64,000 nucleotides of DNA from Desulfosudis oleivorans (GCA_020723305.1 DYJC01000016.1:2650-66649); one strand, 5' to 3'. Counted from the first letter of the stretch, positions 37,175-64,000 are shown. Numbers and translations are program-made. The notes: generated by a model from the letters alone, not told the origin.

Positions 37175-37180
37175 CTGACC

Positions 37181-39937: not shown

Positions 39938-39970
39938 CTCAAGGGGGTATAAGCAGCCGGAAAGACTTTT

Positions 39971-49987: not shown

Positions 49988-52120
49988 ATGAATTTTCAAG
50001 TTGAAAAAACCATTTTCGTGTATATGACAGCAGCAGTTTTTTTTCTGGCGGCAATATACGGCTGTGCAGAAAAAAACGGTTTGAACTCCAATCTTTCATT
50101 TGACAAATGGCGGGCAATGGCAGGTACAAACAAAGGTCATTCCCCGTCTGATAAAGGTCAGTCCACTGTTGTTTCCGATGACCTGTCCAAAAAGATACCG
50201 CATAAAGTGGAAGCGGTTTCAACAAGAAAAGTATTGCCTTCCAAAAGAATTACCATGAAACTTCAGGATACGGGCATATCCACGATTCTCAGGGCTCTTG
50301 CCAAGTCTGTTGAATTGAATATTCTGATCAACGAGAACATTAAAGGGAAAACCAGTATTCATGTCAAGGATGCAAGGTGGGATGAGCTGTTCAACGGGAT
50401 TGTCCGATCCAATGGACTGGCTTATGTCTGGGAGGGAGATCTGCTTCGGGTTATGACCATCGAAGATCTGCAACGTGACTTGAAACAGGCGGAGCAGCAG
50501 AGGGATTTACGGCTCACGGAGCCGATGCTGACAAGGATCATCCCGATCCGGTATGCGGATGAAAAAAAGCTGGGTGAGAATCTGGTCAAATTTCTTTCCA
50601 AGGATCAGAAAGGAGCTGCAATCGGATCCATATCCGTGGATGCGCATACAAAATCACTGGTGATTCAGGCACTGCAATCCGATCTGGATAGGCTGGCAAC
50701 CCTTGTGAACGATCTTGACAAACCCATTGCACAGGTTCTGATCGAGGCGAATATTATTGAAACCAGCCGGGAAACAGCAAGAGACCTGGGTGTACAGTGG
50801 GGAGGAGTGGTGAAAAGAGCAGGATCGACCAATCAATACCTGACTTCCGGTTCAAACAGTTCCGGAGCCTTGGGAAACAGTTTGGAAGCTCCCATAGCGC
50901 CCACTTCCGGTATGGCTGGAAATTTTCCGGCAGACCTTGGCAACAGTGGTGGATTGACCCTTGGCTATGTTGCAGAGAAGGCAGGCGAAAGGGTTCTTGC
51001 TGTGCAGCTCTCGGCTTTGCAGGCAGAGGGGAAACTGAATATTCTTTCCAGCCCGTCGATCACCACACTGGACAACCAGTCTGCCATTATTGAATCCGGA
51101 TCAACCGTTCCCTACCAGACGGTTTCTTCCAACGGCGATATCAACATTCAATGGAAGGATGCGGTTTTAAGACTGGAAGTCGAACCCCATGTGATCGATG
51201 AGGCATCACTCAAACTGGCGATCAAGACCCGGAAGGATGAGCTGGATTTTTCAAGGGAAGTGGATGGCAACCCGACCATCATAACCAAAAAGGCGGAAAC
51301 CAGTATCTTTCTTTTGGATGGCCAGACAACCGTGATCGGAGGACTGAACAAGGAAACCAAAACCGATACGGAATCGGGTGTACCGGGTCTGATGCATATC
51401 CCGTATGTGGGATCTTTTTTTAAAGGCACCAGTCATGGGGACAGCATGGAGGATGTACTGATTTTTATTACTCCTCATATTTTAAAGAAATCGCCTTCCA
51501 TACAATCCAAGGAAACAGAAATCTCTGAAAGTGAAGGAAAGATACTGGCTCAGGAACTGGAAAATGAATCAGTTCAGGAGAAAACAGATGAGCATCCTGC
51601 ACAAGGAAGCCCCCGTTTGGAAAAACCGGCTGTACTTGGAAAAGTTTCTGCGGAAGAATCGGAAACACTATGGCTGATGACGCAATCTGTCTATGGCGTG
51701 TATCGTCCGGAACTCGTGGAACAAGTCATGAAGATCAACCCCCATATTCAACATCCGGATCATATTGGTGTCGGGCAGGTGATCTATTTCCCGGCTATAC
51801 ATGAATCCGGAAGGATTTCTCAACAGAATGCATTCTGGATTCAGATTGATGAGGATGGAGAACTGGAAAAAGCCTATCGCAAGCTGCGATACTATAAAAC
51901 CTTGCTGCCGGACATTCAGATGATTCCTTACTGGAACGACCAGACAGGGCTGCATTTTGCCATTATTCTGAAAGAGGTATTTACAAAAGAGGAGCCGGCC
52001 CAGGAAAGAAGAAGTATACTTCCGGATTCCATGGGTGAAAAAGCAGAGGTGATTTCAATGTGGAAATCAGGGACTGTTTTTTTTGCAGATCCTTTCACAT
52101 CCTTGAAAAGAGCGGAATGA
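49988..52120 (+). CDS. Lipoprotein secretin (PilQ/MshL/GspD family) with C-terminal LysM-like extension
   Basis: 710 aa with lipobox FLAAIYGC and an N-domain ITMKLQDTGISTILRALAKSVELNILI. The secretin core includes VLIEANIIETSRETARDLGVQWGG, LNILSSPSITTLDNQSAIIESG, GVPGLMHIPYVGSFF and VLIFITPHIL. About 210 extra residues follow the core. Confidence 0.85.
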   Translation: MNFQVEKTIFVYMTAAVFFLAAIYGCAEKNGLNSNLSFDKWRAMAGTNKGHSPSDKGQSTVVSDDLSKKIPHKVEAVSTRKVLPSKRITMKLQDTGISTILRALAKSVELNILINENIKGKTSIHVKDARWDELFNGIVRSNGLAYVWEGDLLRVMTIEDLQRDLKQAEQQRDLRLTEPMLTRIIPIRYADEKKLGENLVKFLSKDQKGAAIGSISVDAHTKSLVIQALQSDLDRLATLVNDLDKPIAQVLIEANIIETSRETARDLGVQWGGVVKRAGSTNQYLTSGSNSSGALGNSLEAPIAPTSGMAGNFPADLGNSGGLTLGYVAEKAGERVLAVQLSALQAEGKLNILSSPSITTLDNQSAIIESGSTVPYQTVSSNGDINIQWKDAVLRLEVEPHVIDEASLKLAIKTRKDELDFSREVDGNPTIITKKAETSIFLLDGQTTVIGGLNKETKTDTESGVPGLMHIPYVGSFFKGTSHGDSMEDVLIFITPHILKKSPSIQSKETEISESEGKILAQELENESVQEKTDEHPAQGSPRLEKPAVLGKVSAEESETLWLMTQSVYGVYRPELVEQVMKINPHIQHPDHIGVGQVIYFPAIHESGRISQQNAFWIQIDEDGELEKAYRKLRYYKTLLPDIQMIPYWNDQTGLHFAIILKEVFTKEEPAQERRSILPDSMGEKAEVISMWKSGTVFFADPFTSLKRAE

Positions 52121-52134: not shown

Positions 52135-53745
52135 ATGGATTACTTTGAAATCCTGAATTTGAGCAAAGAACCTTTTTCCAATTCACCGGATCCGGAATTT
52201 TTTTTCCAGTCCAGGCAGCACAAGGAGTGCTTGCAGAAATTGGAGATCTCCATCCGGCTTCGCCGAGGGCTGAATGTGGTTGTCGGGGAAGTGGGAACCG
52301 GAAAAACCACGCTTTGCCGTCAACTGATTCAAAAATTTTCAACTGATGAAAAAATCGAAACCTACCTGATGCTGGATCCCCAATTCTCTTCTTCTCAGGA
52401 GTTCCTGTCCGCCATTCAACGCTTGTTTGATGAAAGGGAAGTTGCCACAGATCCTCCGGGGCAGGAAGGCGATATCAACGCAAAAGAACGGATCAAGCAG
52501 GTTCTGTTTCAAAAAGGAGTCGATGAGAATAAGACGATTGTGCTGATTATTGATGAGGGGCAGAAGATTTCAGAACCCTGTCTGGAGATTCTTCGGGAGC
52601 TTTTGAATTATGAAACCAATCATCATAAGCTTCTGCAGATCATTATTTTTGCCCAGAAAGAGTTTGAAGAAGTAATCGCAAAGCATGAAAATTTCAAAGA
52701 TCGTATTAACCTGTACCATCGACTCGGGCCCCTTGATTTTCGCGACACCTGGCAGATGATTGCTTTTAGGTTACAACAATCCAGCCGGGACAAAACCGTC
52801 CGTCCTGTATTCACCCTGCCGGCATTCCTGGCCATCTATATTTCAACCTCCGGGTATCCCAGAAAGATTATCAATTTATGCCATCAGAGCATGCTGGCGA
52901 TGATTGTCCAGAACCAGCCCAAAGCCGGATGGCTCCTGATTCGGGCCTGTGCACGAAGGAATATGATTGGAAATCCTTTTACCGGGAGGCTGTCGCTGAC
53001 CTTCGGGTTAGGGTTGCTTCTGGTCGTATGTTTACTGATTTTTGGAAATCCGGATCTGTTTCATTTCTGGAAGGTGAATGCTTCTGAGAAGAAACAGGAA
53101 GTGCTGAAAAAGGATCAACCGGAAAAACCCAGGCCTGCCGAGGTTGCCGGGAAACCGGAAATAAAGGTTCCGGTTCCCCCCAAAAAGGAAATTCCTCCAA
53201 ATGATGCGGTTGATCCATCCAGTGAAACCGCGCCCAGGGTTCTCGGAAAGGTTTCGATTCAAAAGGGAGAGTCCCTTGGATTGATCTCTTTGAGTATATT
53301 CGGAAGGGTTGATCCCATGACCCTGGAAAGCATTGTTGCTGCCAATCCGCATATTGCAAGACCGGAAAATATCGAGACCGGAACAGTCATTCATCTTCCT
53401 GCAATTCCGGTGCGTGTCCGGAATACAGGCTTGCCATGCTGGTGGGTGAGGTTAGGCGAAACAGGCAGTCCGGAGGAGGCAATGGAGTTTATCCGTTCCC
53501 ATCCGGAACATGATCCGCCTTTTCGAATGATCCCTTTTTATTCAAAAAAATTAGGTCTGAAATTTGAGATCATTGCCAAGGAATATTTTTTTGATCCGGA
53601 TTCGGCGCAGAAACTGCTGGAAAAAATAGAGACAGCTGATTTCCCCCATGCCGGCATTCGATCCGGCTGGGGTGATGAAAAAGATGTTTTATATGCCAAT
53701 CCGTATCTGGTTTATAAAAGCGGGTCTGGAATGAGAAAAGAATAA
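52135..53745 (+). CDS. ExeA/GspA/MshM-like AAA ATPase with TM helix and periplasmic LysM-like module
   Basis: 536 aa. MDYFEILNLSKEPFSNSPDPEFFFQSRQHKE, Walker A GEVGTGKTTL and Walker B VLIIDEGQ. TM helix LTFGLGLLLVVCLLIF, a Pro/Lys-rich linker, and a C-terminal module homologous to the secretin tail. Confidence 0.8.
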   Translation: MDYFEILNLSKEPFSNSPDPEFFFQSRQHKECLQKLEISIRLRRGLNVVVGEVGTGKTTLCRQLIQKFSTDEKIETYLMLDPQFSSSQEFLSAIQRLFDEREVATDPPGQEGDINAKERIKQVLFQKGVDENKTIVLIIDEGQKISEPCLEILRELLNYETNHHKLLQIIIFAQKEFEEVIAKHENFKDRINLYHRLGPLDFRDTWQMIAFRLQQSSRDKTVRPVFTLPAFLAIYISTSGYPRKIINLCHQSMLAMIVQNQPKAGWLLIRACARRNMIGNPFTGRLSLTFGLGLLLVVCLLIFGNPDLFHFWKVNASEKKQEVLKKDQPEKPRPAEVAGKPEIKVPVPPKKEIPPNDAVDPSSETAPRVLGKVSIQKGESLGLISLSIFGRVDPMTLESIVAANPHIARPENIETGTVIHLPAIPVRVRNTGLPCWWVRLGETGSPEEAMEFIRSHPEHDPPFRMIPFYSKKLGLKFEIIAKEYFFDPDSAQKLLEKIETADFPHAGIRSGWGDEKDVLYANPYLVYKSGSGMRKE

Positions 53746-53891: not shown

Positions 53892-53944
53892 CTTACTTGT
53901 TGTTTTATCAAGTTTGATGGTTTCGTAAAAAAAGTTTATTTTTT

Positions 53945-54017
53945 GTCATTCCGGCGAAAACCGGAATCCAGTGATGTATTTCAATGGTTTCTGGACTCCG
54001 GTTTTCACCGGAGTGAC
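53945..54017 (+). repeat. MITE-like repeat, copy E (core only, no termini)
   Basis: GTCATTCCGGCGAAAACCGGAATCC ... CTGGACTCCGGTTTTCACCGGAGTGAC, in the opposite orientation to copy D, which lies 54 nt upstream. Confidence 0.75.
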
Positions 54018-54067: not shown

Positions 54068-55777
54068 GTGAGGACAAAAAAGAAACTCGGAACAATGCTG
54101 TTTGAAGCCGGTCTGTTAACCGAGGCACAACTGGCAAAAGCAGTTAAGGATCAGCAGAAATATAAACTGAAACTGGGGCAGACCCTGGTCCGTGAAGGGA
54201 TCGTCAGTGGATCTCAGATCGCCGATATTGTTTCCAAACAGCTGAAAATAGATAAGTATCAGCCGGATAAATATCCGATTGACGTGGCTCTGTCCAAGAT
54301 TATTCCGGTTGAGATTGTTCAGAAGCATCAGGTGGTACCGCTCAGCAAGGATCGTTTCTTGCTGACGGTTGCCATGACCGATCCAATGGATATCGATACC
54401 CTTGACAAAATAGAGGTGCTTACCAATACCGAAGTGGAAGTGGTGATCTGCACGGAAAAAGAGCTGAATCATATTGTCAGCAGCATGTATGGCTCCCTTT
54501 CCGGTATCGGCGGCGTCCTTGAGGGTATCGAGGAGATGGAGTTTGAACGGAGTGATGAATCGGAACAGCAGCCGCTGACCGAGGATGTGGAGGTGGGCTC
54601 GCTTCACGACATGGTTGAGGAAGCCCCGGTGATCCGGCTGGTGAACTCGATCCTGGCGCAGGCTGTGCGTGAAGGGGCAAGCGATATCCATATCAGCCCG
54701 GAAAAAGATTTTGTCCAGGTTCGGTTCCGTGTCGACGGCAGGCTTCACGAGGTGCCGGCACCGCCAAAATCTATGATATTATTGATCATCTCACGATTGA
54801 AAATTCTGGCGAACATGGATATCGCAAGATCCAGGATTCCCCAGGACGGCCGGTTCACGGTAAAGATGGATAACAAGGAAATCAATATCCGCGCCTCTAC
54901 CATCCCGACGATTTACGGTGAAAATCTGGTGCTCCGGCTGCTGGATACTAGTGCCGGGGTTTACTCTCTGGGAAGCCTCGGGATTGTGGATCAGGATATC
55001 CAAAAAATTGAGAATGCCATCAGCAAGCCCTATGGAATGATTCTCAGTACCGGGCCGACCGGAAGCGGCAAGAGCACCTGCCTGTATTCCATTTTACAGA
55101 AGATCAACAAGCCGGATATCAATATCATCACACTGGAAGATCCGGTGGAATACAGGGTTGAAAAGATCCGGCAGATTCAATTGAACAGGAAAGCAGGAAT
55201 GACGTTTGCGGACGGGCTGCGGTCGATCATGCGCCAGGATCCGGATGTGATCATGGTCGGCGAGATCCGGGATGCGGAAACCGCAACCATCTCCGTACAG
55301 GCAGCCCTGACCGGTCATCGGGTGTTAAGTACGGTGCACACCAATGATGCTGCCGGGGCCATTACCCGTTTCATTGATATGGGCATTGAACCGTTCCTGG
55401 TTTCATCGGTGATGCTGCTTTCCATTGCACAGCGCCTGATCCGGAGGGTTTGCCCGTATTGCAAGAAACCCTATAAGCCGCCTCAGTCCGCCCTGGAATA
55501 CTGGGGGCTCTCTAAAATAGAGGGAGCTGATTTTGTAAAGGGAACCGGCTGTTTCAACTGCATGGATACCGGGTACAAAGGGCGCGTTGGATTGTATGAG
55601 ATATTGAGCATTGATGAGATGGTTCAGAACATGATCCTCCAGAAAAAATCCGCCCAGGAAATTACACGCGCTGCAAAAGCAGAAGGCCTGCTCAGCACAT
55701 TAATGGAAGATGCCACCCGGAAAGTACTGGAGGGTGTTACGACTCTGGAAGAAGCAGCTTCAGCGGTGATGGTATAA
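54068..55777 (+). CDS. MshE/GspE/PilB-family pilus ATPase with N-terminal MshEN-type motif pair
   Basis: 569 aa, GTG start. N-terminal KLGTMLFEAGLLTEAQLAKAVKDQ-QKYKL-KLGQTLVREGIVSGSQIADIVSKQ. Walker A GPTGSGKST, Walker B IMVGEIRD and a CPYC...CFNC Zn motif. Confidence 0.85.
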   Translation: MRTKKKLGTMLFEAGLLTEAQLAKAVKDQQKYKLKLGQTLVREGIVSGSQIADIVSKQLKIDKYQPDKYPIDVALSKIIPVEIVQKHQVVPLSKDRFLLTVAMTDPMDIDTLDKIEVLTNTEVEVVICTEKELNHIVSSMYGSLSGIGGVLEGIEEMEFERSDESEQQPLTEDVEVGSLHDMVEEAPVIRLVNSILAQAVREGASDIHISPEKDFVQVRFRVDGRLHEVPAPPKSMILLIISRLKILANMDIARSRIPQDGRFTVKMDNKEINIRASTIPTIYGENLVLRLLDTSAGVYSLGSLGIVDQDIQKIENAISKPYGMILSTGPTGSGKSTCLYSILQKINKPDINIITLEDPVEYRVEKIRQIQLNRKAGMTFADGLRSIMRQDPDVIMVGEIRDAETATISVQAALTGHRVLSTVHTNDAAGAITRFIDMGIEPFLVSSVMLLSIAQRLIRRVCPYCKKPYKPPQSALEYWGLSKIEGADFVKGTGCFNCMDTGYKGRVGLYEILSIDEMVQNMILQKKSAQEITRAAKAEGLLSTLMEDATRKVLEGVTTLEEAASAVMV

Positions 55778-55778
55778 A

Positions 55779-57002
55779 ATGGCTAAATTTTCGTACAAGG
55801 CGATCAATGAGCAGGGGGAAAATTTATCCGGTTCCATTGAGGCAGAGTCTTCGGAAATGGCTACCAATATATTGAGTGCAAGGGGTATCATCCCTCTTTC
55901 AGTAAGAGGAGAAGCAGGGGCCGGGGGCGGCGCTTCCCGTCTGGATGCTTTGAATGAATGGCTGACCCCTGTGAAAGCGCCGGATCTGATTATTTTCACC
56001 AAACAGTTCCGGACCTTGCTGAAATCCGGTGTGCCGATTGTTAAATTACTGGAGGTGGTGGGAAGCCAGACGGAAAATATCAAGCTGAAGAAGATCATTC
56101 ATTCCATGAACGATGATATCCGGGAAGGGGCAAGCCTGCATGATGTTTTTAGAAAACATCCAAAGGCATTTTCCCCCCTCTATTGCAGTATGATGAAAGC
56201 CGGAGAGGCAAGCGGCGCCTTGCCGGAGGTTCTGGAAAGGCTGGCGTTCATCATCGAACATGAACACAGGATAAAGTCGGATGTGAAATCCGCGCTTCAA
56301 TATCCGATGATTGTTATTGTTTTCCTTTGCGTTGCCTTTTTTGTGCTGTTAACGTTTGTGATTCCAAAATTCGTAAGGGTGTTTGTGAGCGCCGGGATTG
56401 ATCTGCCGATGCCCACCCGGATCTGCATGTTCATGTATGAGTTCATGGCAAATTACTGGGTTATTCTGGTTGGAGCCATTGTCTCCGGAGTGATTGCGCT
56501 GTTTTATTATACCAAGACAGAGCAGGGGAGCTATGTCCGGGATACGCTGTTTATGAAAATACCGGTTATCGGCACACTGTTTGTCAAGGCGGCCATGTCC
56601 AGGTTTGCAAGTATTTTTGCCATACTCCAGTCCAGCGGAGTGGATATCCTGGACTCCATGAAGATTCTTTCCGGAACCATCGGGAATCTTGCCATTGCAA
56701 GGGAGTTCCAGAACATTATTAACCGTCTGGAAGAGGGAAGAGGCATTGCCGAACCCTTGGCCAAAGCCAGGTATTTCACGCCGATTGTGATTAACATGAT
56801 TGCCATCGGAGAGGAGTCCGGAAACCTGGATGAGATGCTGGAGGAGATATCGGCTCATTATGATTTTGAACTGCAATATGCCATGAAGAAATTGTCCGAT
56901 GCCATTGGACCGATTTTAACCATCGGACTTGCCGCGGTAGTTGGTTTTTTTGCCCTGGCCATATTTTTGCCCATGTGGGATCTCACAAAGGTTGTGAAGT
57001 GA
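55779..57002 (+). CDS. GspF/PilC/MshG-family platform protein
   Basis: 407 aa with two GspF-type repeats and three hydrophobic regions. It starts 2 nt after the ATPase stop. Confidence 0.85.
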   Translation: MAKFSYKAINEQGENLSGSIEAESSEMATNILSARGIIPLSVRGEAGAGGGASRLDALNEWLTPVKAPDLIIFTKQFRTLLKSGVPIVKLLEVVGSQTENIKLKKIIHSMNDDIREGASLHDVFRKHPKAFSPLYCSMMKAGEASGALPEVLERLAFIIEHEHRIKSDVKSALQYPMIVIVFLCVAFFVLLTFVIPKFVRVFVSAGIDLPMPTRICMFMYEFMANYWVILVGAIVSGVIALFYYTKTEQGSYVRDTLFMKIPVIGTLFVKAAMSRFASIFAILQSSGVDILDSMKILSGTIGNLAIAREFQNIINRLEEGRGIAEPLAKARYFTPIVINMIAIGEESGNLDEMLEEISAHYDFELQYAMKKLSDAIGPILTIGLAAVVGFFALAIFLPMWDLTKVVK

Positions 57003-57084: not shown

Positions 57085-57229
57085 TGAGCCAATTTCAAAA
57101 GTCTGTTGTTGTCATTCCGGCGAAAGCCGGACACACAGTGAAGCCTTGCGCTATCCAGTATTTTTAGTTCTTTTCTGGACACCGGCTTTCGCCGGTGTGA
57201 CGTCTTTTGATAGTTTTGAAAATAGCTCT
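57085..57229 (+). repeat. MITE-like repeat, copy F
   Basis: TGAGCCAATTTCAAAAG ... GTCATTCCGGCGAAAGCCGGACAC ... GGACACCGGCTTTCGCCGGTGTGAC ... TTTTGAAAATAGCTC. It lies about 75 nt upstream of the pilin gene. Confidence 0.85.
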
Positions 57230-57303
57230 TTTGATAAATTGATTGTTTTTTTTTTGAAATTGAATATACTGTGAGTATCTAAAATCTTGGGAGGGATTTT
57301 TTG

Positions 57304-57696
57304 ATGAAGAAACGAAATCTGGTAAAAAATGAAGAGGGTTTTACGCTGGTTGAGATTATCGCTGTTCTGGTTATCCTTGGAATTTTAGCAGCCGTGGCCA
57401 TACCAAAGTATTTTGATCTTCAGAAAGAGGCAAAAGAAAAAGCCCTTACTGCAGCGATGTCAGAGGCGATTTCAAGGGTTAACGGCCATTTTGGTAAGCA
57501 ACTCCTTTCCGGTTCAGCATGGAATACGATTACCTACAGCAACGCAACCCTGGGAGATGATCTGGGAGATTTTACACTCAATGTGACCAATGCTTCCGGT
57601 AATTCAATCACCCTGACGGTTACGGCAAAACCAGGCAGGGCAGCTGATGGCGCTACCATACCACCCAAGACCATACCCAAACCCGGGTCAATTTAG
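57304..57696 (+). CDS. Type IV pilin / pseudopilin (probable major subunit)
   Basis: GGGAGGG lies 8 nt upstream of ATG 57304. Prepilin motif KNEEG|FTLVEIIAVLVILGILAAVAIPKY with Glu5. 130 aa, no Cys pair, and a Pro/Thr/Lys-rich C-terminal tail. Confidence 0.8.
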   Translation: MKKRNLVKNEEGFTLVEIIAVLVILGILAAVAIPKYFDLQKEAKEKALTAAMSEAISRVNGHFGKQLLSGSAWNTITYSNATLGDDLGDFTLNVTNASGNSITLTVTAKPGRAADGATIPPKTIPKPGSI

Positions 57697-57763
57697 ATTT
57701 TTTAACCATCTGGTTTTAGAAAAGGGAGATGTTTTGATGAAAGCATATGAAACAGCGCCCTTT

Positions 57764-59875
57764 TTATTTTTTTTCTATTTTCTTTTGCCCCCTATTCAGG
57801 AGCAGTCGATCCTTCTGATAGGATTGAATGACAGGCTGCAAGACAGCCAAATCCGGAAGATAGATCTTTGTTTCGGGATTTTTCATGGATAACCTGATCT
57901 GTTCCATTATGGACAGGCCCTGTTTGTTTTTCATCAGGCTGTCCAAATGGTGCCGGCAATTTCCGGTTTGGCCGAGCCGGGCATGCAATTCAATCAGGGC
58001 AAGGTGTGCCTGCGGAAAGTCCGGTTCCGATTCACTTACCTGATTCCAGATGGAAATCGATTTTTCCCATTCTTTTCTTTTCCGGTAAATTTCAGCCATT
58101 GCAATCCGATAATCCGTCTGATCCGGATCAAGAATTGTAACTTTCCGTATGGCTTCCAGTGCGCTGTCCAGTTTGTTTTCTTTCAATAAAATAACGCTTT
58201 TTGCAAACAGAAGGTCTGGATTATCCGGCCAGAAAGAAAGTGCATGTTCGACTAGACCCATGGCTTTTTGGCGATCGCCCTGTATCATATGGATACGGGA
58301 AAGTTCTGCCCAGATATAGGGAGAACCATTGTTGATATGTAGCGCTTCCTCAAAGGCGGATCCGGCTTTGCTGTACTGTCTTGTCACATATGCATCATGC
58401 AGCGCCTTATTGAATATCAGGGTCCGGTGCTGAATTTTATTGTTAAACCGGTTTATCTTTTCCGCCTTTTCCAGCATCCGGATCGATTCTTCCGTACGGC
58501 CGATCTCCCACAAACTTCTTCCCAGATTGAGGAAAGGCGTACTCAAGTTCGGGGATTTCCTGCTGTTATCCTGCCAGAGGCGGACGCCGGATAAAAAAAG
58601 ATGGTTCCGCATGTAGGTTGTATGGGACTGTGATACAAGAAGGATGATTCCAGCGATTAAGAAAAGGGTTCGCATGAATCTGGTTTTGGACAGGTGGTCA
58701 ATTGGTCTCGTCAGCATGATCGCAAAAATCAGAAAAAAGAAGATGGAGGGTAAATAGTTCCGGTGCTCATAGATCAGTTCAAGGGGAAGAAAGGAGCCCT
58801 CGATCAGATGATTGAAAATAAAAAAAAGAATCCCGAAACCGATAACCGGATATTTCCGGGAAGAATACACGCCAAAGTACAGGAAGGAACACAGAAGGGC
58901 GATAGAGGGCAGGGTCGACCATGGGGAAAACAGGCTCCGGGAGATTTCAATATCATGAAGGAGTGTAAACCCGGAGCTGACCGGATAAAGCAGAAGCGAG
59001 ATATAAAAAATGATTACCCTGGGTTCGGTCAGAAGCCGTTCCAGCATCGTAAAATACCGGATCTTATACCCGTTTAAAATAGAGGCCGGAGAAAAAAGAA
59101 ATGATCCCAAGATCAGCATGCCGGTCAGGATCAACAGAAAAAGCAGGATATGTTTTTTGTTTTTTTCTTGCGGTAACCCTTGAATGATGATGACGTCATA
59201 TAAAAAGATTGAAATTGGAAGCATCAGGGCATTTTCTTTGCCGGCAATGGCTAAAATGCCTGCGAGCATAAATAAAAGAAACCCGATTCCTTTTTGTTTT
59301 GCTTCCGCATGCACCCGGAAAAAGATGTAGAATAGCATGGACAGGATATAAAACATGGCAGACATGGATGCCATTCTTTGCACAATATAGGTTACGGCTG
59401 TGACCTGAATGGGGTGGGAAGCCCAGAAAAGGGTGGAGAAAAGAGAAATCGGGTAGATATTTTTCAGAGAATCCGTTGCCGGGTTCTGAAGTTTCAGCGT
59501 AATATGGATCAATAAAAACAGAAGAATGGATGTAATGCAGTGAATTGTAAGATTGACGATATGATATCCAAATGTATTATTCCGGCTGAAGTAATAATTC
59601 AAGGCAAAGGTCAGATAGGATAACGGCCGTGTATCATAGGTATGATTCAGTTTTTTCCCATACAGGATGTTTTTTAGGGAATCCAATGAAAATTCCCGCA
59701 GATGGATATTGGGATTATCTGTGATGTTCAAAAAGTCGTCATAGTGGAAGGGAGCGTGGAAACTGTTGCTGTAGATTATGAGCAGCAAAATCAGAATGGC
59801 CGTAACGGCAAACAGACCTTCCCTTGCTGTGGGGAGAAGAATACGATTTTTTGTCATAGGGTAATATCGGGGCAT
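57764..59875 (-). CDS. TMTC-like GT-C glycosyltransferase with C-terminal TPR array (fourth paralog)
   Basis: 703 aa with APFHYDDFLNITDNPNI, YHIVNLTIHCITS and HPIQVTAVTYIVQRMASMS, then TPRs in the C-terminal ~270 aa. It is convergent with the pilin gene. Confidence 0.75.
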   Translation of the reverse strand: MPRYYPMTKNRILLPTAREGLFAVTAILILLLIIYSNSFHAPFHYDDFLNITDNPNIHLREFSLDSLKNILYGKKLNHTYDTRPLSYLTFALNYYFSRNNTFGYHIVNLTIHCITSILLFLLIHITLKLQNPATDSLKNIYPISLFSTLFWASHPIQVTAVTYIVQRMASMSAMFYILSMLFYIFFRVHAEAKQKGIGFLLFMLAGILAIAGKENALMLPISIFLYDVIIIQGLPQEKNKKHILLFLLILTGMLILGSFLFSPASILNGYKIRYFTMLERLLTEPRVIIFYISLLLYPVSSGFTLLHDIEISRSLFSPWSTLPSIALLCSFLYFGVYSSRKYPVIGFGILFFIFNHLIEGSFLPLELIYEHRNYLPSIFFFLIFAIMLTRPIDHLSKTRFMRTLFLIAGIILLVSQSHTTYMRNHLFLSGVRLWQDNSRKSPNLSTPFLNLGRSLWEIGRTEESIRMLEKAEKINRFNNKIQHRTLIFNKALHDAYVTRQYSKAGSAFEEALHINNGSPYIWAELSRIHMIQGDRQKAMGLVEHALSFWPDNPDLLFAKSVILLKENKLDSALEAIRKVTILDPDQTDYRIAMAEIYRKRKEWEKSISIWNQVSESEPDFPQAHLALIELHARLGQTGNCRHHLDSLMKNKQGLSIMEQIRLSMKNPETKIYLPDLAVLQPVIQSYQKDRLLLNRGQKKIEKK

Positions 59876-59965
59876 CTGCTTCGAGGTAAATTTTGTTTAT
59901 TGTTGCGTATGTATATATCTGTTTCAGGATCAGAGTCAATATGACCTGCAACAGAAACATTACAC

Positions 59966-59994
59966 TTGACAGGAATAGGTAAAAACGTACTAAT
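59966..59994 (+). promoter_or_regulatory. Weak candidate sigma70-type promoter for the minor pilin genes
   Basis: TTGACA at 59966-59971, a 17-nt spacer, then ACTAAT at 59989-59994. The -10 matches only 4 of 6 positions. Pattern match only. Confidence 0.2.
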
Positions 59995-60071
59995 ACAATT
60001 GGTTTTGGATTCATTTTCAAATAAACATCGTGTTGTCCAGAAAAATGCAACCATGACTGAAAAAAACATGA

Positions 60072-60581
60072 ATGCCTGAACAGATGAGACAATCAGCCCA
60101 TAATATTTTTCCTCCGCGCAGCCCAGATGGATTTACCGTAATTGAACTTATCGCGGTACTGGTCATGATCAGCGTGATCAGCGCGGTCATTCTGGGACGG
60201 ATGGGTGGGGATATAAAGGCGGATCTTGACGCACGAACCGACACCTTGAAAGCACATCTCCGGTATGCCCAGTCAAGGGCGATGGATTCAGATCTGATCT
60301 GGGGAATCCGGTATACCGGAACAGGATATTTTCTTTTTTCTTTTAACGGGAGTTCACAATCTGCGATTCGTATACCGGATGAGGAGAATGTGATTGTTGA
60401 TCTTTCAGGCAATGGAATCAGCCTGGGCTCTTTTCAGGCAATTTCATTTGATTCATGGGGAAGCCCATATGCAAATGCCACAGGAACCGGTTCTTCTGCC
60501 GGACAGACAATTGTTGTTTCTGACGGAAGCAACCCCCTGAATTCGATTGCAGTCACAAAAAATACAGGATTTATCCAATGA
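60072..60581 (+). CDS. Minor prepilin-type protein (GspH/FimT-like)
   Basis: 169 aa. Prepilin motif SPDG|FTVIELIAVLV. LKAHLRYAQSRAMDSD resembles GspH/FimT-type minor pilins. Confidence 0.7.
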   Translation: MPEQMRQSAHNIFPPRSPDGFTVIELIAVLVMISVISAVILGRMGGDIKADLDARTDTLKAHLRYAQSRAMDSDLIWGIRYTGTGYFLFSFNGSSQSAIRIPDEENVIVDLSGNGISLGSFQAISFDSWGSPYANATGTGSSAGQTIVVSDGSNPLNSIAVTKNTGFIQ

Positions 60582-61000
60582 TGAAAAAAAGAACCGCATT
60601 CCATTATGACCAAAGGGGTTTTACGCTTCTGGAGGTCATTATTACCCTGGTGATCGCTGCGATCTTTGGAAGCATGCTGATACAGTTTACCGGCACAAGC
60701 ATGTCCAGAAGCGCTGATACGGTTGAGCGGGTCAGAAACGGAAGCACACTTGTCCGGACGATTGAATCGATCACAAAAGATTATCGAAGCTGGATACAAA
60801 ACAATCCGGATGATCCCCTGGTCAATTTTAAAAATACAATCGATGCCTCCTATGGAGGAGGAAATATTGCCGTCCAAACGGTTTTTTCAGATGTTGATTC
60901 CGGAATGGATACGGATGTTGAAATACTCTGGGTCACGGTCTCCGAACTGGATGAAGGCCTGAATGTCAGGCAATCCCTGGTTACACTTTTTACCAGATGA
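60578..61000 (+). CDS. Minor prepilin-type protein
   Basis: 140 aa with DQRG|FTLLEVIITLVIAAIF. The start overlaps the upstream stop (ATGA). Its stop TGA is the first 3 nt of MITE copy G. Confidence 0.7.
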   Translation: MMKKRTAFHYDQRGFTLLEVIITLVIAAIFGSMLIQFTGTSMSRSADTVERVRNGSTLVRTIESITKDYRSWIQNNPDDPLVNFKNTIDASYGGGNIAVQTVFSDVDSGMDTDVEILWVTVSELDEGLNVRQSLVTLFTR

Positions 61001-61166: not shown

Positions 61167-61733
61167 ATGAAAAATGAAAACGGATTCACCTTGATTGAAA
61201 TCATCATATCCCTTGTTATTGTCGGGATCATGGTGTCGATTGTGGGAATCCTGATGGTGGTGGGTGTTCAGGAATATGCTTTTTCAAAAGAAAATGTGGC
61301 AATGTCTCAAAAAGCATCCCTTGCAGTAAAGCGAATTGAAAAGGAGATCCGGGGATTGACAGTGATGGATGAGATTAATTCAGACAATTCCTGTATCCGC
61401 TATAAAATCGAGACCCTTTCTCCTTATTACCGGGCAATCGCTATTCGTGGCAACACCATTGAATTAAAAATATTGCCGAATGCCGATTGTGGCTGCGCAA
61501 CCAATGGAGATGTTTTGGTGGATCAGGTTTCAGGCCTTGTTTTCTCATACGAGAGCAGCGCTACTGATCCTTCAACGGTTTCATCATCACCGCCTTTGAA
61601 GTTATCGGATCTGTCAGAGGTCCGGGTTGTATTTACCCTGAATCTCCGGTCAGGGGAAGTGTCTAAAAGTTTTGAGGTGCGGATCAATCCGAGAAATAAC
61701 GGGAATCTCAATGGCCCGGGAGTACAGTTGTAA
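61167..61733 (+). CDS. Minor prepilin-type protein (PilW/GspJ/MshO-like)
   Basis: 188 aa with NENG|FTLIEIIISLVIVGIM followed by AMSQKASLAVKRIEKEIRGL, typical of PilW/GspJ-type subunits. Confidence 0.7.
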   Translation: MKNENGFTLIEIIISLVIVGIMVSIVGILMVVGVQEYAFSKENVAMSQKASLAVKRIEKEIRGLTVMDEINSDNSCIRYKIETLSPYYRAIAIRGNTIELKILPNADCGCATNGDVLVDQVSGLVFSYESSATDPSTVSSSPPLKLSDLSEVRVVFTLNLRSGEVSKSFEVRINPRNNGNLNGPGVQL

Positions 61734-61757: not shown

Positions 61758-64000
61758 ATGATGAAAAAAAAGATGCAAAACATGTTTTTTTGCTATGGTT
61801 CAATAATGCGGACAAAACCGGTTCGATGGTGCCGGTTCCGGACGAATCCGGAAACCGGAGCTGTGCTTCTGGTGCTGGTTGTTCTGATGGTGATGGTCGG
61901 TTTTCTGGGTGCTGCAATGACACACCAGACCGCCATCGGGAGTCTGAGTTCCGTCAGCGGAAACCGTTCACAGCAGGCCTTTTACCTGGCAGAATCCGGA
62001 TACCGGTATGCTGCAGCCAAGATGAAGAAAGGTTCGGATCTGAACACACTTCACGATCATGGTCCTTATGCAATCGGTAATTCCGGAACATTCACGATTC
62101 AGTTTTACCCCTATATTTTTGATGCCGTGAACACGGATGGTGCCGGGACGCTTACAGCCAAAGTGCCGTTTGGAGATGCACCTTCTGTTGCCATGTCTGC
62201 CGGCACAGGTAATTTTTTCTATCTGAAAACCACCAGTCAGACAGAACCGTTCCAGACGATTCTGGTATCGGATGATACCATATCCTTTGTCAAGGATACG
62301 GGATTATGGAACGTGCTTTCTTCCGAAAGAGTCCGGCTTGCGGTCAAAAGCAATGGGGATCCCTTGATAGAGGGAGGGGATCTGAATCTGCAATCAACCA
62401 GTTCTGCCGATGCGTTTCCGCTTCGTCATGGCCGTATTCTGATGGATGGGAAGGTTTATCAGTACAAAATCCGTGAGCCGTTAAAACTCGCAGTTATAAC
62501 CAGAGCGGATGACCAGCCGTGGGAAGCCCCGGCACTGTATAACGGCATGGATGTGATCCTGCTCGATTTCATGGAATTGCATTCAACCGGCAGGATCGGA
62601 AACGGCTCTGCATCTGTCAGCCAAAAGGTTGTCTACAACATCCCGGTTTATGGAACAGATAATGAAGAGTTTCATGATCCTTTTGACGACAAATCCCACT
62701 GGGAAGAGACTTCAACAAAGGGGAGCCATGTGATCGAAACAGTGGCCGGTGACAAGGTGCTGAAGGTTGAGTCAACAACCGTTACCGGTCCGGTAAGCAA
62801 AAGCCAGATCGCCCTTGTGCCATCTACAACCGGTATTGATTTTTCTAAAACCCATCGCATTGCCGGTGATTTCCTGAGTTATGATACCCAGGTAAAAGTC
62901 GGGTTCTCTCCCGATATACCAGTTCATTACATGGCGGGGATCTCTTTTCGTCTGAATGGAACAACAGGGGAACACTTTGGTGTTTCCTTTCAAAAGCCGG
63001 ATTTTTATGATCTATCAGGAGCTATCGATCAGATACCGGATGATCTGGTTCCAGGCCCGATGCAGAATCAGTACGGGATTGTGCTGTGGCAGGAGCTTGC
63101 AGCAGGATGGGACTGGCTTGCCTATAAAAAACTGACGCCTGTGACCCTGTTTCAGGATACTATGGAAGGTGACAGCTCTGCCTGGAGTCAGACCGATACC
63201 TGGGGAAAAACCACCTGGGCGCACGGTTCAGGCCATTCCTTTACAGACAGTGTTTCCGGAAACTATTCCGATAATCAGGAAACAGCTATCATTTCCAGAA
63301 CCCTTGACCTGTCCGGCAGGAAAGAGGTTTCTCTTTCCTTCTACCATTACTACAGCATCGAACCGCCATTGCTCATTTTTGGGGGGTATACGGATTTTGG
63401 AGCGGTTGAGATCTCAAACGATAACGGGACAACCTGGACAGAGCTTGCCCGGTTTGCCAACTGGTATGTTTTTTTTATTGAAATGAGCCAGAACTCCTGG
63501 AAAAAGGAAACGTTTTCAATTCCGGATGCATTCTTGTCCGATCAGATGAAGATCCGGTTCCGTCTGGTGACAGATTACTCCGTGACAAGGGATGGCTGGT
63601 ATATTGATGATGTCCGGCTTGATTCCAACTGGTTCCCGGAAACAGACGCGACTCTGGTTGTGCATCTGGTTGAGGCAGCAGCCATTGAATTCACAAATGG
63701 AATTTTGCCGAAAATTGAAGACAAGGATATCCTGATCAGTCAGGTGAATGGGACAAGAGGTGTTGTTGTGGGAGAGCCGATCGTCAATTCCGGTTCATGG
63801 GCTTCCGGAAACGCTGCCGGGATTATCCGGTTGAACAATCTTTCTGCACCCGTCTTTCCAAACGGGCCGGTTCAAATCATTGGAAAGGGAACCAATCTGG
63901 CCAATGTAACGGGCTTTCGGGCAAGGGATAACTATATTCAGGTGTATTATGGAGACAGGATCGGATACGGCATCCCGAACAGCACTCCGCTTGACAATGA
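61758..64000 (+). CDS. Large PilX_N/GspK-like pilus-associated protein with jelly-roll domain (3' partial, continues beyond window)
   Basis: The frame is open from the stop at 61731-61733 to the window end. It is absent from the ORF track because no stop is reached. ATGs occur at 61758, 61761, 61773, 61782 and 61806. The N-terminus ETGAVLLVLVVLMVMVGFLGAAM...QAFYLAESGYRYA is PilX_N/GspK-like. The region ~63190-63630 (TWAHGSGHSFTDSVSGNYSDNQ...VSLSFYHYY...AVEISNDNGTTWTEL...IRFRLVTDYSVTRDGWYIDDVRL) resembles MAM/InhA-type jelly-roll domains. Confidence 0.7.
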   Translation, partial: MMKKKMQNMFFCYGSIMRTKPVRWCRFRTNPETGAVLLVLVVLMVMVGFLGAAMTHQTAIGSLSSVSGNRSQQAFYLAESGYRYAAAKMKKGSDLNTLHDHGPYAIGNSGTFTIQFYPYIFDAVNTDGAGTLTAKVPFGDAPSVAMSAGTGNFFYLKTTSQTEPFQTILVSDDTISFVKDTGLWNVLSSERVRLAVKSNGDPLIEGGDLNLQSTSSADAFPLRHGRILMDGKVYQYKIREPLKLAVITRADDQPWEAPALYNGMDVILLDFMELHSTGRIGNGSASVSQKVVYNIPVYGTDNEEFHDPFDDKSHWEETSTKGSHVIETVAGDKVLKVESTTVTGPVSKSQIALVPSTTGIDFSKTHRIAGDFLSYDTQVKVGFSPDIPVHYMAGISFRLNGTTGEHFGVSFQKPDFYDLSGAIDQIPDDLVPGPMQNQYGIVLWQELAAGWDWLAYKKLTPVTLFQDTMEGDSSAWSQTDTWGKTTWAHGSGHSFTDSVSGNYSDNQETAIISRTLDLSGRKEVSLSFYHYYSIEPPLLIFGGYTDFGAVEISNDNGTTWTELARFANWYVFFIEMSQNSWKKETFSIPDAFLSDQMKIRFRLVTDYSVTRDGWYIDDVRLDSNWFPETDATLVVHLVEAAAIEFTNGILPKIEDKDILISQVNGTRGVVVGEPIVNSGSWASGNAAGIIRLNNLSAPVFPNGPVQIIGKGTNLANVTGFRARDNYIQVYYGDRIGYGIPNSTPLDN

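What the first reader, a model, noticed from the sequence alone, without database searches (positions are those of the whole stretch)
57304..60581. TMTC-like GT-C/TPR gene wedged antisense between major and minor pilin genes
Seen: the fourth TMTC-like paralog (57764-59875, minus strand) is convergent with the putative major pilin (57304-57696) and splits it from the three minor pilin genes. The pilin ends in a Pro/Thr/Ser/Lys-rich tail (TVTAKPGRAADGATIPPKTIPKPGSI). Established: dedicated pilin glycosyltransferases are encoded next to pilA in Pseudomonas. TfpO/PilO modifies a C-terminal Ser. TfpW, a GT-C enzyme, adds arabinofuranose to Ser/Thr. Inference: this GT-C/TPR enzyme is a candidate pilin O-glycosyltransferase of a type not yet linked to pili. 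That would also give a concrete substrate class for the TMTC-like family in this genome.
Basis: partly seen in the sequence, partly recalled or inferred. Interest (0 to 1): 0.6.

Follow-up and report, generated by a model that had tools for sequence, protein, structure and literature searches.

The report
Pilin-linked membrane glycosyltransferase candidate
A membrane enzyme of the lipid-sugar-using (GT-C) glycosyltransferase type, with a protein-binding TPR tail, sits next to the main pilus-subunit gene here and in about 80% of related loci from sulfate-reducing and syntrophic bacteria, so it is most likely a pilin-sugar-adding enzyme resembling Pseudomonas TfpW.

Summary
A 703-aa gene (57764-59875, minus strand) lies convergent to a 131-aa prepilin (57301/57304-57696), ahead of three minor pilins.

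- **Fold.** Residues 1-440 form a multi-helix membrane domain with no Pfam hit. Its model matches only GT-C enzymes (PglB, STT3, ArnT, Pmt1/2, Pmt4). It is homologous to three in-window PMT_2-like/TPR paralogs (hhalign 99.2%). A DD pair in the first loop is invariant. Residues 445-650 are TPR.
- **Linkage.** Among homologs of 33-88% identity, 50 of 60 loci with enough flank have a pilin within 800 bp, convergent or co-directional.
- **Donor genes.** About 13 loci also carry a GT2 with C-terminal membrane helices and a flippase-like gene.
- **Accessory status.** In pilC-anchored loci the gene is present in about half, always after the pilin.

The glycosyltransferase reading is well supported by comparison but unproven. 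"A type not yet linked to pili" is overstated, because TfpW has the same GT-C plus TPR architecture beside pilA. Homology to TfpW could not be tested. The three paralogs share only 20-23% identity with this gene and are not next to pilin genes here.

Verdict: a probable new, widespread member of the pilin-accessory glycosyltransferase kind.

The parts
57301..57696 (+). Major prepilin, 131 aa (ATG at 57304). Class III signal ...EEG|FTLVE, hydrophobic N-terminal helix, C-terminal ...DGATIPPKTIPKPGSI.
   Evidence: ORF. N_methyl E 3e-7. GspG, PilA and ComGC N-terminal matches. Orthologs sit in the same position in L001-L006.
57764..59875 (-). 703-aa GT-C-fold membrane protein with a C-terminal TPR domain: the candidate pilin glycosyltransferase.
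   Evidence: NCBI's call starts at Met7 (P0001, 697 aa).
58586..59875 (-). Membrane (GT-C) domain, residues 1 to about 430, about 11-13 helices.
   Evidence: AF2 model has pLDDT 82 and pTM 0.87. Foldseek top hits are PglB, STT3, ArnT, Pmt1/2, Pmt4 and AftA. hhalign to the PMT_2-like paralogs gives 99.2%. No Pfam hit and no PDB sequence-profile hit.
59735..59740 (-). Codons D46-D47: the invariant DD pair in the first loop after TM1, taken as the GT-C catalytic / metal-binding motif.
   Evidence: Invariant in 46 and in 33 sequences. Aligns with the DD of the paralogs. Translation checked.
57926..58543 (-). TPR domain, residues about 445-650, about 6 repeats.
   Evidence: TPR_19, TPR_2, TPR_14 and others. 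Foldseek matches the OGT and SPY TPR domains and CTPR proteins. Translation checked.
60072..60581 (+). Minor pilin 1 (GspH-like).
   Evidence: Orthologs found in related loci.
60578..61000 (+). Minor pilin 2.
61167..61733 (+). Minor pilin 3.
61758..64000 (+). Large pilus-associated protein, about 855 aa in orthologs, running off the window. It has an N-terminal TM helix and a weak InhA-like MAM match. Probable tip or adhesin component.
   Evidence: Orthologs of 854-855 aa in L001 and L003.
55779..57002 (+). PilC/GspF platform protein.
   Evidence: T2SSF E 2e-60. GspF and PilC NCBIfam models.
54068..55777 (+). PilB/GspE-type assembly ATPase with an MshEN c-di-GMP-binding N-terminal domain.
52135..53745 (+). 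ExeA/MshM-like AAA_22 ATPase with a C-terminal LysM-like part.
49988..52120 (+). PilQ-type secretin.
   Evidence: Secretin E 6e-45. TIGR02515 scores 308 bits against a cut-off of 284.
27668..28615 (-). GT2 with two C-terminal TM helices (GtrB/CsbB/DPM1-like). A possible in-trans supplier of a polyprenyl-phosphate sugar donor. It lies divergent from YfhO (29452-31803).
   Evidence: Glycos_transf_2 E 1e-27. TM segments at 225-253 and 260-285. The link to the pilin locus is inferred only.

Best explanation
The 57764-59875 gene most likely encodes an inner-membrane glycosyltransferase of the GT-C fold dedicated to the neighbouring major pilin.

Proposed mechanism:
1. A GT2 enzyme with C-terminal TM helices charges a polyprenyl phosphate with a sugar on the cytoplasmic face.
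2. A flippase-like protein moves the lipid-linked sugar to the periplasmic face.
3. The GT-C domain transfers it to Ser/Thr of the pilin, using the invariant D46-D47 in its first periplasmic loop and the conserved E366-x3-E-H-R-N-Y-x-P376 loop.
4. The periplasmic TPR domain holds the pilin's globular or C-terminal part while the pilin is still anchored in the inner membrane before assembly.

In this genome the GT2 and flippase genes are not in the locus and must act in trans. One candidate is the GtrB-like GT2 at 27668-28615.

The gene is an optional accessory cassette. It is inserted, usually antisense, between the pilin and the minor-pilin genes, in the way tfpO and tfpW accompany particular pilA alleles in Pseudomonas. 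By analogy, the likely benefit is masking of the pilus surface, for example against pilus-specific phages.

Shown: fold class, conserved motifs, gene linkage, and co-occurrence with donor-pathway genes in relatives. Inferred: catalysis, the pilin as acceptor, O-linkage, the sugar, the topology and the biological role.
For: **Enzyme class**
- AF2 model of residues 1-441 has pLDDT 82 and pTM 0.87.
- All meaningful Foldseek PDB hits are GT-C enzymes: PglB 5ogl (prob 0.99, TMq 0.43), STT3 6ftg_5, ArnT 5f15 (prob 0.97), Pmt1-Pmt2 6p25_B (prob 1.00, rmsd 3.9 over 234 columns), Pmt4 9e61 and AftA 8if8.
- hhalign to the in-window paralogs, which reach PMT_2 at 25.5-25.7 bits, gives probability 99.2% and E 1.6e-19 over 375 columns, with DD aligned to DD.
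- 34 to 50 invariant columns include D46 and D47.
- The C-terminal half is TPR, with matches to the OGT and SPY TPR domains.

**Link to the pilin**
- The layout is identical in orthologs of 53-88% identity, L001-L006.
- Across 82 loci of 33-88% identity from Desulfobacteraceae, Desulfosarcinaceae, Desulfonema, Desulfosudis, Smithella and Syntrophales, a pilin ORF lies within 800 bp in 63: 47 convergent and 15 co-directional upstream.
- The figure is 50 of 60 when both flanks are at least 1 kb.
- The linked pilin can be the window type or a T4a-like 113-aa pilin without assembly genes nearby. The pilin is therefore the constant partner.

**Donor pathway**
- In about 13 genome loci and in L127, L149 and L159, the genes GT2 (Glycos_transf_2 plus C-terminal TMs), optionally GT4 or a methyltransferase, and LPG_synthase_TM are co-directional with and directly upstream of the gene.

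**Accessory behaviour**
- In pilC-anchored loci about 12 have the gene and about 9 lack it. It is always at the same insertion point.

**Precedents**
- TfpW is GT-C plus TPR beside pilA.
- Cyanobacterial Ogt is TPR plus GT41, adjacent to pilA in 38% of genomes and needed for PilA glycosylation.
Against: - There is no experimental evidence that any of these pilins is modified.
- No Pfam, NCBIfam or PDB-sequence match exists for the membrane domain.
- Foldseek E-values are weak (0.08-0.6) and TM-scores are only 0.36-0.43.
- In this window and in its closest orthologs (L001-L006) no GT2 or flippase gene is in the locus. No LPG_synthase_TM homolog is in the 64 kb.
- No Ser/Thr of the linked pilins is invariant. 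The best positions are about 70% conserved.
- Pilins from clusters with and without the gene do not differ clearly.
- GT-C enzymes also modify lipids and glycans, so the acceptor could be something else made or exported by this locus.
- About 10 of 60 loci have no pilin within 800 bp, although three of those ten have a pilin 1.8-2.2 kb away.
Confidence: 0.62

Rival explanations
1. It is a pilus assembly or stability factor rather than an enzyme. The TPR domain would chaperone pilins or the secretin, as the TPR proteins PilF/PilW/Tgl or MshN do in other type IV systems. The membrane domain would be only an anchor or a pseudo-enzyme.
For: The TPR part gives weak hits to type_IV_pilW (TIGR02521, E 1e-7) and Tgl. 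One homolog was named 'Tfp pilus assembly protein PilF' by JGI (P0060). The machinery is MSHA-like (MshEN ATPase, ExeA/MshM-like ATPase), and from my own knowledge the V. cholerae MSHA operon includes a TPR protein, MshN. No donor genes are in this locus.
Against: Those TPR hits are far below the family cut-offs (31 bits against 154) and are generic. The membrane domain is the better-conserved half, about 45% against about 40% overall. It carries invariant charged and polar residues in the loops, including the GT-C DD motif, which is not expected of a passive anchor. Operons with a GT2 and a flippase-like gene occur in relatives. About half of related pilus clusters manage without the gene, so it is not a core assembly part.
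Confidence: 0.13
2. It is a GT-C glycosyltransferase, but the acceptor is not the major pilin. The target could be a minor pilin, the roughly 855-aa tip protein, another envelope protein or a glycan or lipid. Under this reading the pilin adjacency reflects co-regulation or hitch-hiking.
For: The gene lies between the major and minor pilins, so both are neighbours here. GT-C enzymes such as ArnT, Emb and YfhO act on lipids and glycans (hits; for YfhO in this window). Tandem arrays of 2-5 paralogs occur in some loci (L066, L070, L072), which could build or decorate a polymer.
Against: In loci where the gene follows a T4a-like pilin there are no minor pilins or tip protein nearby (L062, L070, L072-74, L077, L081). 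The only constant neighbour is the major-type pilin. A TPR domain fused to a transferase is typical of protein-directed enzymes such as OGT, TMTC and TfpW.
Confidence: 0.15
3. The adjacency has no functional meaning. A common TPR membrane-protein family happens to sit in a conserved syntenic block.
For: The superfamily is very large: 6,044 representatives at E<=1e-30. This genome has several paralogs elsewhere.
Against: The linkage persists at 33-41% protein identity across orders. It survives inversion of the gene relative to the pilin (47 convergent against 15 co-directional), a change of pilin class and loss of the surrounding machinery. That pattern indicates selection on the pair rather than inherited synteny.
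Confidence: 0.05

Closest known systems
TfpW, the pilin D-arabinofuranosyltransferase of P. aeruginosa group IV strains (Pa5196/PA7)
   Same: As described in bioRxiv 10.1101/2020.04.19.049825: a polytopic GT-C membrane domain with a cytoplasmic N-terminus, a DDX motif in the first periplasmic loop, a conserved Y-x6-P motif in the last periplasmic loop before a large C-terminal periplasmic TPR domain, similar size (646 aa against 703 aa), ArnT as the nearest structural template, and a gene immediately next to the major pilin gene. It is an accessory gene present only with some pilin alleles. Here D46-D47, Y369-x6-P376, the TPR domain at 445-650, an ArnT hit and pilin adjacency are all seen.
   Different: The gene here is usually antisense to the pilin rather than downstream in the same operon. 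The hosts are anaerobic Desulfobacterota and the pilus machinery is MSHA-like. The associated donor genes in relatives are GT2 plus LPG_synthase_TM rather than the DprE1/DprE2/GtrA-like D-Araf pathway. The full TfpW motif YX6PFX7P is not matched beyond Y-x6-P.
Eukaryotic TMTC1-4 (GT-C/PMT clan O-mannosyltransferases with C-terminal TPR)
   Same: The architecture is an N-terminal GT-C membrane domain followed by lumenal or periplasmic TPR repeats, with an acidic motif in loop 1 and structural similarity to ArnT, PglB and Pmt (PMC7801869; here). That paper notes full-length homologs in Deltaproteobacteria.
   Different: There is no match to the TMTC-defining DUF1736 model or to PMT_2, even at E<=10. 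The relation is only transitive, through in-window paralogs that are themselves just under the PMT_2 threshold. The acceptor proposed here is a pilin, not cadherin-type domains.
Three-component periplasmic glycosylation systems (GtrB-like GT2 + small flippase + GT-C; e.g. Gtr, ArnC/ArnEF/ArnT, CsbB/GtcA/YfhO)
   Same: In about 13 relatives' loci the gene is in an operon with a GT2 bearing C-terminal TM helices and a polytopic flippase-like protein. This matches the scheme reviewed in PMC11127046 and PMC8035078.
   Different: The flippase candidate is of the LPG_synthase_TM (MprF-flippase-like) type, not GtrA or ArnEF. The GT-C carries a TPR domain and is tied to a protein substrate gene. In the window itself only the GT-C component is in the locus.
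TfpO/PilO and PglL O-oligosaccharyltransferases (Wzy_C family)
   Same: TfpO is an accessory gene next to pilA that glycosylates the pilin, with a role in phage defence.
   Different: It is an unrelated fold and family. No Wzy_C match is found here. Those enzymes transfer preassembled O-antigen units to a C-terminal Ser.
Cyanobacterial Ogt (TPR + GT41) that glycosylates PilA
   Same: It is a TPR-bearing glycosyltransferase encoded next to pilA in many genomes and required for PilA glycosylation.
   Different: It is a soluble GT-B (GT41) enzyme using UDP-GlcNAc, with N-terminal TPR. It is neither a membrane GT-C nor dependent on a lipid-linked donor.

Membership tests
GT-C superfamily (membrane glycosyltransferases using polyprenyl-phosphate-linked donors) | Polytopic membrane domain with the GT-C fold | tested here: met
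   The AF2 model (pLDDT 82, pTM 0.87) gives Foldseek top hits PglB, STT3, ArnT, Pmt1/2, Pmt4 and AftA with probability 0.94-1.00, but weak E-values of 0.08-0.6 and TMq of 0.36-0.43.
GT-C superfamily (membrane glycosyltransferases using polyprenyl-phosphate-linked donors) | Conserved acidic motif (DxD, DD or DE) in the first extracytoplasmic loop | tested here: met
   D46-D47 lie about 10 residues after TM1. They are invariant in 46 and in 33 homologs and align with the DD of the PMT_2-like paralogs. The periplasmic location is inferred by homology, not measured.
GT-C superfamily (membrane glycosyltransferases using polyprenyl-phosphate-linked donors) | Glycosyl transfer from a lipid-linked donor | not testable with these tools
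   This needs biochemistry. Indirect support comes from operons with a GT2 carrying C-terminal TMs and with a flippase-like gene in relatives.
Pfam PMT_2 (PF13231) / TMTC (DUF1736, PF08409) | Significant match to the family HMM | tested here: not met
   No Pfam hit for residues 1-444 at E<=10. The paralogs reach PMT_2 at 25.5-25.7 bits, just under the 26.1 cut-off. The gene relates to them by hhalign at 99.2%. It is a superfamily-level relative, not a member.
TMTC-like architecture | N-terminal GT-C domain followed by C-terminal TPR repeats | tested here: met
TfpW family (pilin arabinosyltransferases) | Sequence homology to TfpW (AAM52060.1) and its homologs | not testable with these tools
   The TfpW sequence could not be obtained. 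The Kus 2008 paper is not held, there is no plasmid hit and no NCBIfam model matched.
TfpW family (pilin arabinosyltransferases) | GT-C with DDX in periplasmic loop 1, plus a C-terminal periplasmic TPR domain, plus a gene adjacent to the major pilin gene | tested here: met
   The architecture and adjacency are as described for TfpW. Here.
TfpW family (pilin arabinosyltransferases) | Proline-rich motif YX6PFX7P in the last periplasmic loop | tested here: inconclusive
   Y369-x6-P376 is present and conserved (P376 invariant, Y369 at least 90%). The following F-x7-P is not matched: the window has S377 and no Pro at +9, and the family consensus has Pro at +7.
TfpW family (pilin arabinosyltransferases) | D-Araf donor pathway (DprE1/DprE2-like genes) | not tested
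   No such genes were noticed in the loci examined. The associated genes are GT2, GT4, a methyltransferase and LPG_synthase_TM.
TfpO/PglL O-oligosaccharyltransferases | Wzy_C / O-antigen ligase domain | tested here: not met
   No such Pfam or NCBIfam match.
PilF/PilW/Tgl/MshN-type TPR pilus assembly proteins | Match to the family model at its cut-off; small periplasmic or lipoprotein TPR protein | tested here: not met
   TIGR02521 scores 31 bits against a cut-off of 154. Tgl scores 15.7 bits against 225. The protein is a 703-aa polytopic membrane protein.
Type IV pilin (the 57301-57696 gene) | Class III signal peptide with G|F-x-x-x-E and a hydrophobic N-terminal helix | tested here: met
   The sequence is ...EEG|FTLVEIIAVLVILGILAAVAIPKY. 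N_methyl E 3e-7 and TIGR02532 at 26.9 bits against a cut-off of 16.3.
Three-component periplasmic glycosylation system | GT2 polyprenyl-phosphate glycosyltransferase, flippase and GT-C encoded together | tested here: inconclusive
   Met in relatives: L007-9, L016, L026, L028, L029, L042, L061, L064, L127, L149 and L159. Not met in the window locus or in L001-L006. A GtrB-like GT2 lies 29 kb away, at 27668-28615.

The most novel reading that the evidence does not exclude
The gene belongs to a large, previously uncharacterised bacterial branch of the PMT/TMTC-like GT-C+TPR superfamily whose natural substrate is the type IV pilin. Under this reading it is unrelated in sequence to TfpW, so a pilin-dedicated GT-C+TPR transferase arose convergently. 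It would travel as an antisense 'glycosylation cassette' (GT2, MprF-type flippase-like protein and GT-C/TPR) that inserts between the major and minor pilin genes of MSHA-like and T4a pili across Desulfobacterales and Syntrophales. This would be the first substrate assignment for bacterial TMTC-like enzymes. It would also imply that pili of many sulfate reducers and syntrophs are O-glycosylated.
Probability: 0.3. Interest if true: 0.7.

Novelty: new member of a known kind. Interest (0 to 1): 0.52.

Why it matters
- **A testable function for an unannotated family.** The membrane domain has 6,044 cluster representatives at E<=1e-30 and is currently labelled only 'tetratricopeptide repeat protein'. 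Comparative evidence now points to a specific partner, the pilin.
- **Wider reach of pilin accessory glycosyltransferases.** The concept established for TfpO and TfpW in Pseudomonas would extend to anaerobic Desulfobacterota. Their pili are studied for attachment, syntrophy and electron transfer, usually on the assumption that the pilins are unmodified.
- **A bacterial model for TPR-guided GT-C enzymes.** These systems could be used to study how TMTC-like enzymes select protein substrates.
- **An ecological prediction.** The presence/absence pattern, with about half of related clusters carrying the gene, suggests a variable surface-masking trait, for example against pilus-specific phages.

Tried and rejected
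- **Full-length Foldseek against PDB.** Only TPR proteins were returned. I re-predicted the membrane domain alone to see the GT-C hits.
- **Sequence-based searches for the membrane domain.** All were empty: Pfam at E<=10, NCBIfam (TPR-only hits), a profile against PDB sequences and tblastn against plasmids.
- **Obtaining TfpW for a direct homology test.** This failed. The 2008 paper is not held and the preprint gives only accession numbers.
- **Structure between the convergent genes.** No terminator-like hairpin was found in the 67-bp gap. The promoter and terminator counts match the shuffled expectation.
- **RNA elements.** Rfam found no riboswitch or other RNA in the window.
- **A pilin feature separating clusters with and without the gene.** There is only a weak tendency: [ST]-G-[ST]-W in pilins with the gene against P-G-x-W in those without. 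The sample is too small.
- **N-glycosylation through the three N-x-S/T sequons.** Rejected as the main idea. The sequons are conserved only in the closest orthologs, and the enzyme has no significant sequence match to any solved structure, PglB/STT3 included.
- **An e-pilin reading.** Rejected. By inspection of the sequence, the mature pilin has about 6% aromatic residues.

Full report
**1. What is in the sequence**

- A 131-aa prepilin runs from 57301 (TTG) or 57304 (ATG) to 57696 on the + strand. It has the leader ...KNEEG|FTLVEIIAVLVILGILAAVAIPKY and ends in TVTAKPGRAADGATIPPKTIPKPGSI.
- Sixty-seven bases after its stop, a 703-aa ORF on the minus strand ends (57764-59875). The two genes are therefore convergent.
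- Three further prepilin-type genes follow on the + strand: 60072-60581, 60578-61000 and 61167-61733.
- A large protein of at least 746 aa then runs off the window.
- Upstream on the + strand is a complete type IV filament machinery: a PilM-like protein, a PilQ-type secretin, an ExeA/MshM-like AAA ATPase, a PilB/GspE ATPase with an MshEN c-di-GMP-binding domain, and PilC/GspF.

The closest genome relatives are Desulfocicer MAGs at 82-88% identity.

**2. What the 703-aa protein is**

Residues about 445-650 are TPR repeats. Residues 1 to about 440 are polytopic. They have no Pfam hit even at E<=10, no NCBIfam hit apart from TPR models, and no match when a 33-sequence profile is searched against all PDB sequences.

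AlphaFold2 with a 46-sequence alignment gave a confident full-length model with pLDDT 84 and pTM 0.81. The membrane domain alone gave pLDDT 82 and pTM 0.87.

The full-length model matched only TPR proteins such as OGT, SPY and CTPR. For the membrane domain, every hit with high probability is a GT-C glycosyltransferase:
- PglB 5ogl (prob 0.99, TMq 0.43)
- STT3
- ArnT 5f15 (prob 0.97)
- Pmt1-Pmt2 6p25_B (prob 1.00, rmsd 3.9 Å over 234 columns)
- Pmt4
- AftA

The E-values are weak (0.08-0.6), so this is fold-level evidence only.

Independent sequence evidence comes from three other ORFs in the window: 188-2653, 4165-6777 and 12935-15379. They have the same architecture and reach Pfam PMT_2 at 25.5-25.7 bits, just below the cut-off. 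The gene is 20-23% identical to them over its full length. A profile-profile comparison of the membrane domains gives probability 99.2% and E 1.6e-19 over 375 columns, with the DD pair of one family aligned on the DD of the other.

D46-D47, about ten residues after the first TM helix, are invariant in all homologs aligned. So are many loop residues, including the motif E366-LIYEHRNY-x-P376 just before the last two helices.

The protein is therefore a GT-C-fold, PMT/TMTC-like transferase with a C-terminal TPR domain. By its own Pfam score it is not a member of PMT_2 or of TMTC/DUF1736. The family is large: with the membrane domain as query, 6,044 50%-identity cluster representatives score E<=1e-30 and 40,306 score E<=1e-3.

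**3. Is the position next to the pilin meaningful?**

Yes. The closest orthologs (53-88% identity; L001-L006) have exactly the same layout: pilC, pilin, the antisense GT-C/TPR gene, three minor pilins, then an 855-aa protein.

A scan of one genome per species returned 79 loci at 33-88% identity. They come from Desulfobacteraceae, Desulfosarcinaceae, Desulfonema magnum, Desulfosudis oleivorans, Smithella, Syntrophus and other Syntrophales. I searched all their ORFs with the window's proteins.
- 63 of 82 loci have a pilin of the major type within 800 bp of the gene. Of these, 47 are convergent and 15 are co-directional with the pilin immediately upstream.
- Among loci with at least 1 kb on both flanks the figure is 50 of 60, and three more have a pilin 1.8-2.2 kb away.
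- The partner pilin is not always the window type. In several Syntrophaceae loci it is a T4a-like 113-aa pilin ([25 protein letters not shown]...) with no assembly genes nearby. It is then followed by one to five tandem copies of the GT-C/TPR gene.

The linkage survives inversion, a change of pilin class and loss of the surrounding machinery. That pattern indicates selection on the pair.

**4. The reverse test**

Using a PilC alignment as the anchor, I fetched 80 metagenomic loci with PilC 53-65% identical. Among those with a pilin and enough downstream sequence, about 12 carry the gene right after the pilin or pilins. About 9 lack it: in eight of these the pilin is followed directly by the minor pilins, and in one (L152) nothing related follows the pilin.

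The gene is therefore an optional accessory that always uses the same insertion site. Pseudomonas pilin accessory genes behave in this way.

**5. Donor pathway**

In about 13 of the genome loci, and in the metagenomic loci L127, L149 and L159, the gene is the last member of a co-directional operon. The operon contains:
- a GT2 with a Glycos_transf_2 domain and C-terminal TM helices, which from my own knowledge is the GtrB/DPM1/ArnC type that makes polyprenyl-phosphate sugars;
- sometimes a GT4 and a methyltransferase;
- an LPG_synthase_TM protein, which from my own knowledge is the MprF flippase-domain family.

In L149 and L159 the order is pilin (forward), then GT-C/TPR, LPG_synthase_TM and GT2 (all reverse), then minor pilins (forward). 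This is an antisense three-component glycosylation cassette wedged into the pilin operon.

The window and its closest orthologs keep only the GT-C/TPR gene in the wedge. The window has no LPG_synthase_TM homolog. It does have a GtrB-like GT2 with two C-terminal TM helices at 27668-28615, divergent from a YfhO gene. That GT2 could supply a donor in trans, but this is inference.

**6. The acceptor**

The linked pilins share no invariant Ser/Thr. The best-conserved S/T positions, at about 70%, are a G-x-[ST] about ten residues from the C-terminus (DGAT in the window pilin) and two β-strand positions.

Pilins from clusters with the gene tend to have [ST]-G-[ST]-W where pilins from clusters without it have P-G-x-W. 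The sample is too small to rely on.

One pilin paralog beside a cassette (L149) carries a Thr-rich C-terminal extension.

**7. Comparison with what is known**

TfpW of P. aeruginosa group IV strains is described as follows (bioRxiv 10.1101/2020.04.19.049825). It is a 646-aa GT-C enzyme with a cytoplasmic N-terminus, 11 TM helices, a DDX motif in periplasmic loop 1, a YX6PFX7P motif in the last periplasmic loop and a periplasmic C-terminal TPR domain. It is modelled on ArnT, is encoded immediately downstream of pilA, and is conserved next to pilA in several gamma- and betaproteobacteria.

That is the same architecture and the same genomic logic as here. Y369-x6-P376 matches the first half of the TfpW motif. 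The claim of a type 'not yet linked to pili' is therefore overstated.

Whether this family is homologous to TfpW could not be tested, because the TfpW sequence was not obtainable.

Other comparisons:
- Cyanobacterial Ogt (TPR plus GT41) lies beside pilA in 38% of cyanobacterial genomes and is needed for PilA glycosylation.
- The TMTC analysis notes full-length TMTC homologs in Deltaproteobacteria (PMC7801869).
- TfpO and PglL belong to an unrelated family, and no Wzy_C domain is present here.

I found no paper linking this family to pili in Desulfobacterota.

**8. Rival readings**

- *A non-enzymatic TPR assembly factor* of the PilF/PilW/Tgl/MshN type. The only support is generic sub-threshold TPR hits. 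Against it stand the stronger conservation of the membrane domain and its motifs, the donor-gene operons, and the dispensability of the gene in about half of related clusters.
- *A transferase acting on a minor pilin, the tip protein or a glycan.* This is not excluded. However, only the major-type pilin is a constant neighbour.
- *Chance synteny.* This is very unlikely given the orientation changes and the range of taxa.

**9. Verdict**

The functional inference of a pilin-directed GT-C/TPR glycosyltransferase is well supported by comparative genomics and fold evidence, and I give it a confidence of about 0.6. It remains unproven.

The finding is best filed as a new and widespread member of the known kind 'pilin accessory glycosyltransferase', closest in design to TfpW. 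It is not a categorically new link between GT-C/TPR enzymes and pili. The other three paralogs in the window are distant and not next to pilin genes, so the pilin cannot be taken as their substrate.

Noticed in passing
window 53752-53975 and 57085-57230: A REP-like element of about 80-150 bp, built from units such as TGTCATTCCGGCGAAAGCCGGAATCCAG, occurs in inverted orientation just upstream of pilB and just upstream of the pilin gene (79-nt arms, 89% complementary). Its translation explains the spurious small ORFs with '...FWTPAFAGVT...'.
   Followed up: partly
L055:12767-14107 and the equivalent 1.5-1.8 kb gaps in L007, L022, L029, L068, L075, L086: Many related loci carry a sigma-54 activator of about 450 aa with two N-terminal TM helices (Sigma54_activat + HTH_8) between pilC and the pilin gene. 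It is absent from the window and its closest orthologs.
   Followed up: partly
L066, L070, L072 (also L049, L050, L062): Tandem arrays of up to five GT-C/TPR paralogs occur. In L070 and L072 the array follows a T4a-like 113-aa pilin. This suggests multi-step or multi-specificity modification. Unverified thought: these short Syntrophaceae pilins may be of the type studied as Syntrophus 'e-pili'.
   Followed up: no
L149:11312-11869: A pilin paralog beside a GT2 / flippase-like / GT-C cassette has a C-terminal extension that is Thr-rich (TPTTTTITTTTTT) and then Gly/His-rich.
   Followed up: no
window 32450-42789: A MoxR (AAA_3) / DUF58 / BatD-like operon contains an unusual NTP_transferase + GT2 fusion protein at 34419-35930.
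   Followed up: no
window 15414-31803: A glycan-modification island. It holds Acyl_transf_3, a TPR protein, an IS66 transposase (18072-18890), MBOAT, a DegT aminotransferase, a PglD-like acetyltransferase, a methyltransferase, a radical SAM/SPASM protein, a GtrB-like GT2 with two C-terminal TMs (27668-28615), WbqC and a YfhO GT-C-type protein (29452-31803).
   Followed up: partly
window 7697-9274 and 9343-10854: Two proteins built of roughly 40-aa repeats with the motif FSPDSKHLAY lie among the three ~800-aa TMTC-like paralogs and a methyltransferase-GT2 fusion (2662-4098). They are conceivable substrates of those paralogs.
   Followed up: no
window 57301-57696: The pilin has three N-x-S/T sequons (NAT, NVT, NAS). 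They are conserved only in the closest orthologs.
   Followed up: partly
window 44422-46581: A second T2SSE/MshEN-type ATPase of 719 aa, with an extended N-terminus, lies at the head of the pilus cluster in addition to the PilB-like ATPase at 54068-55777.
   Followed up: no
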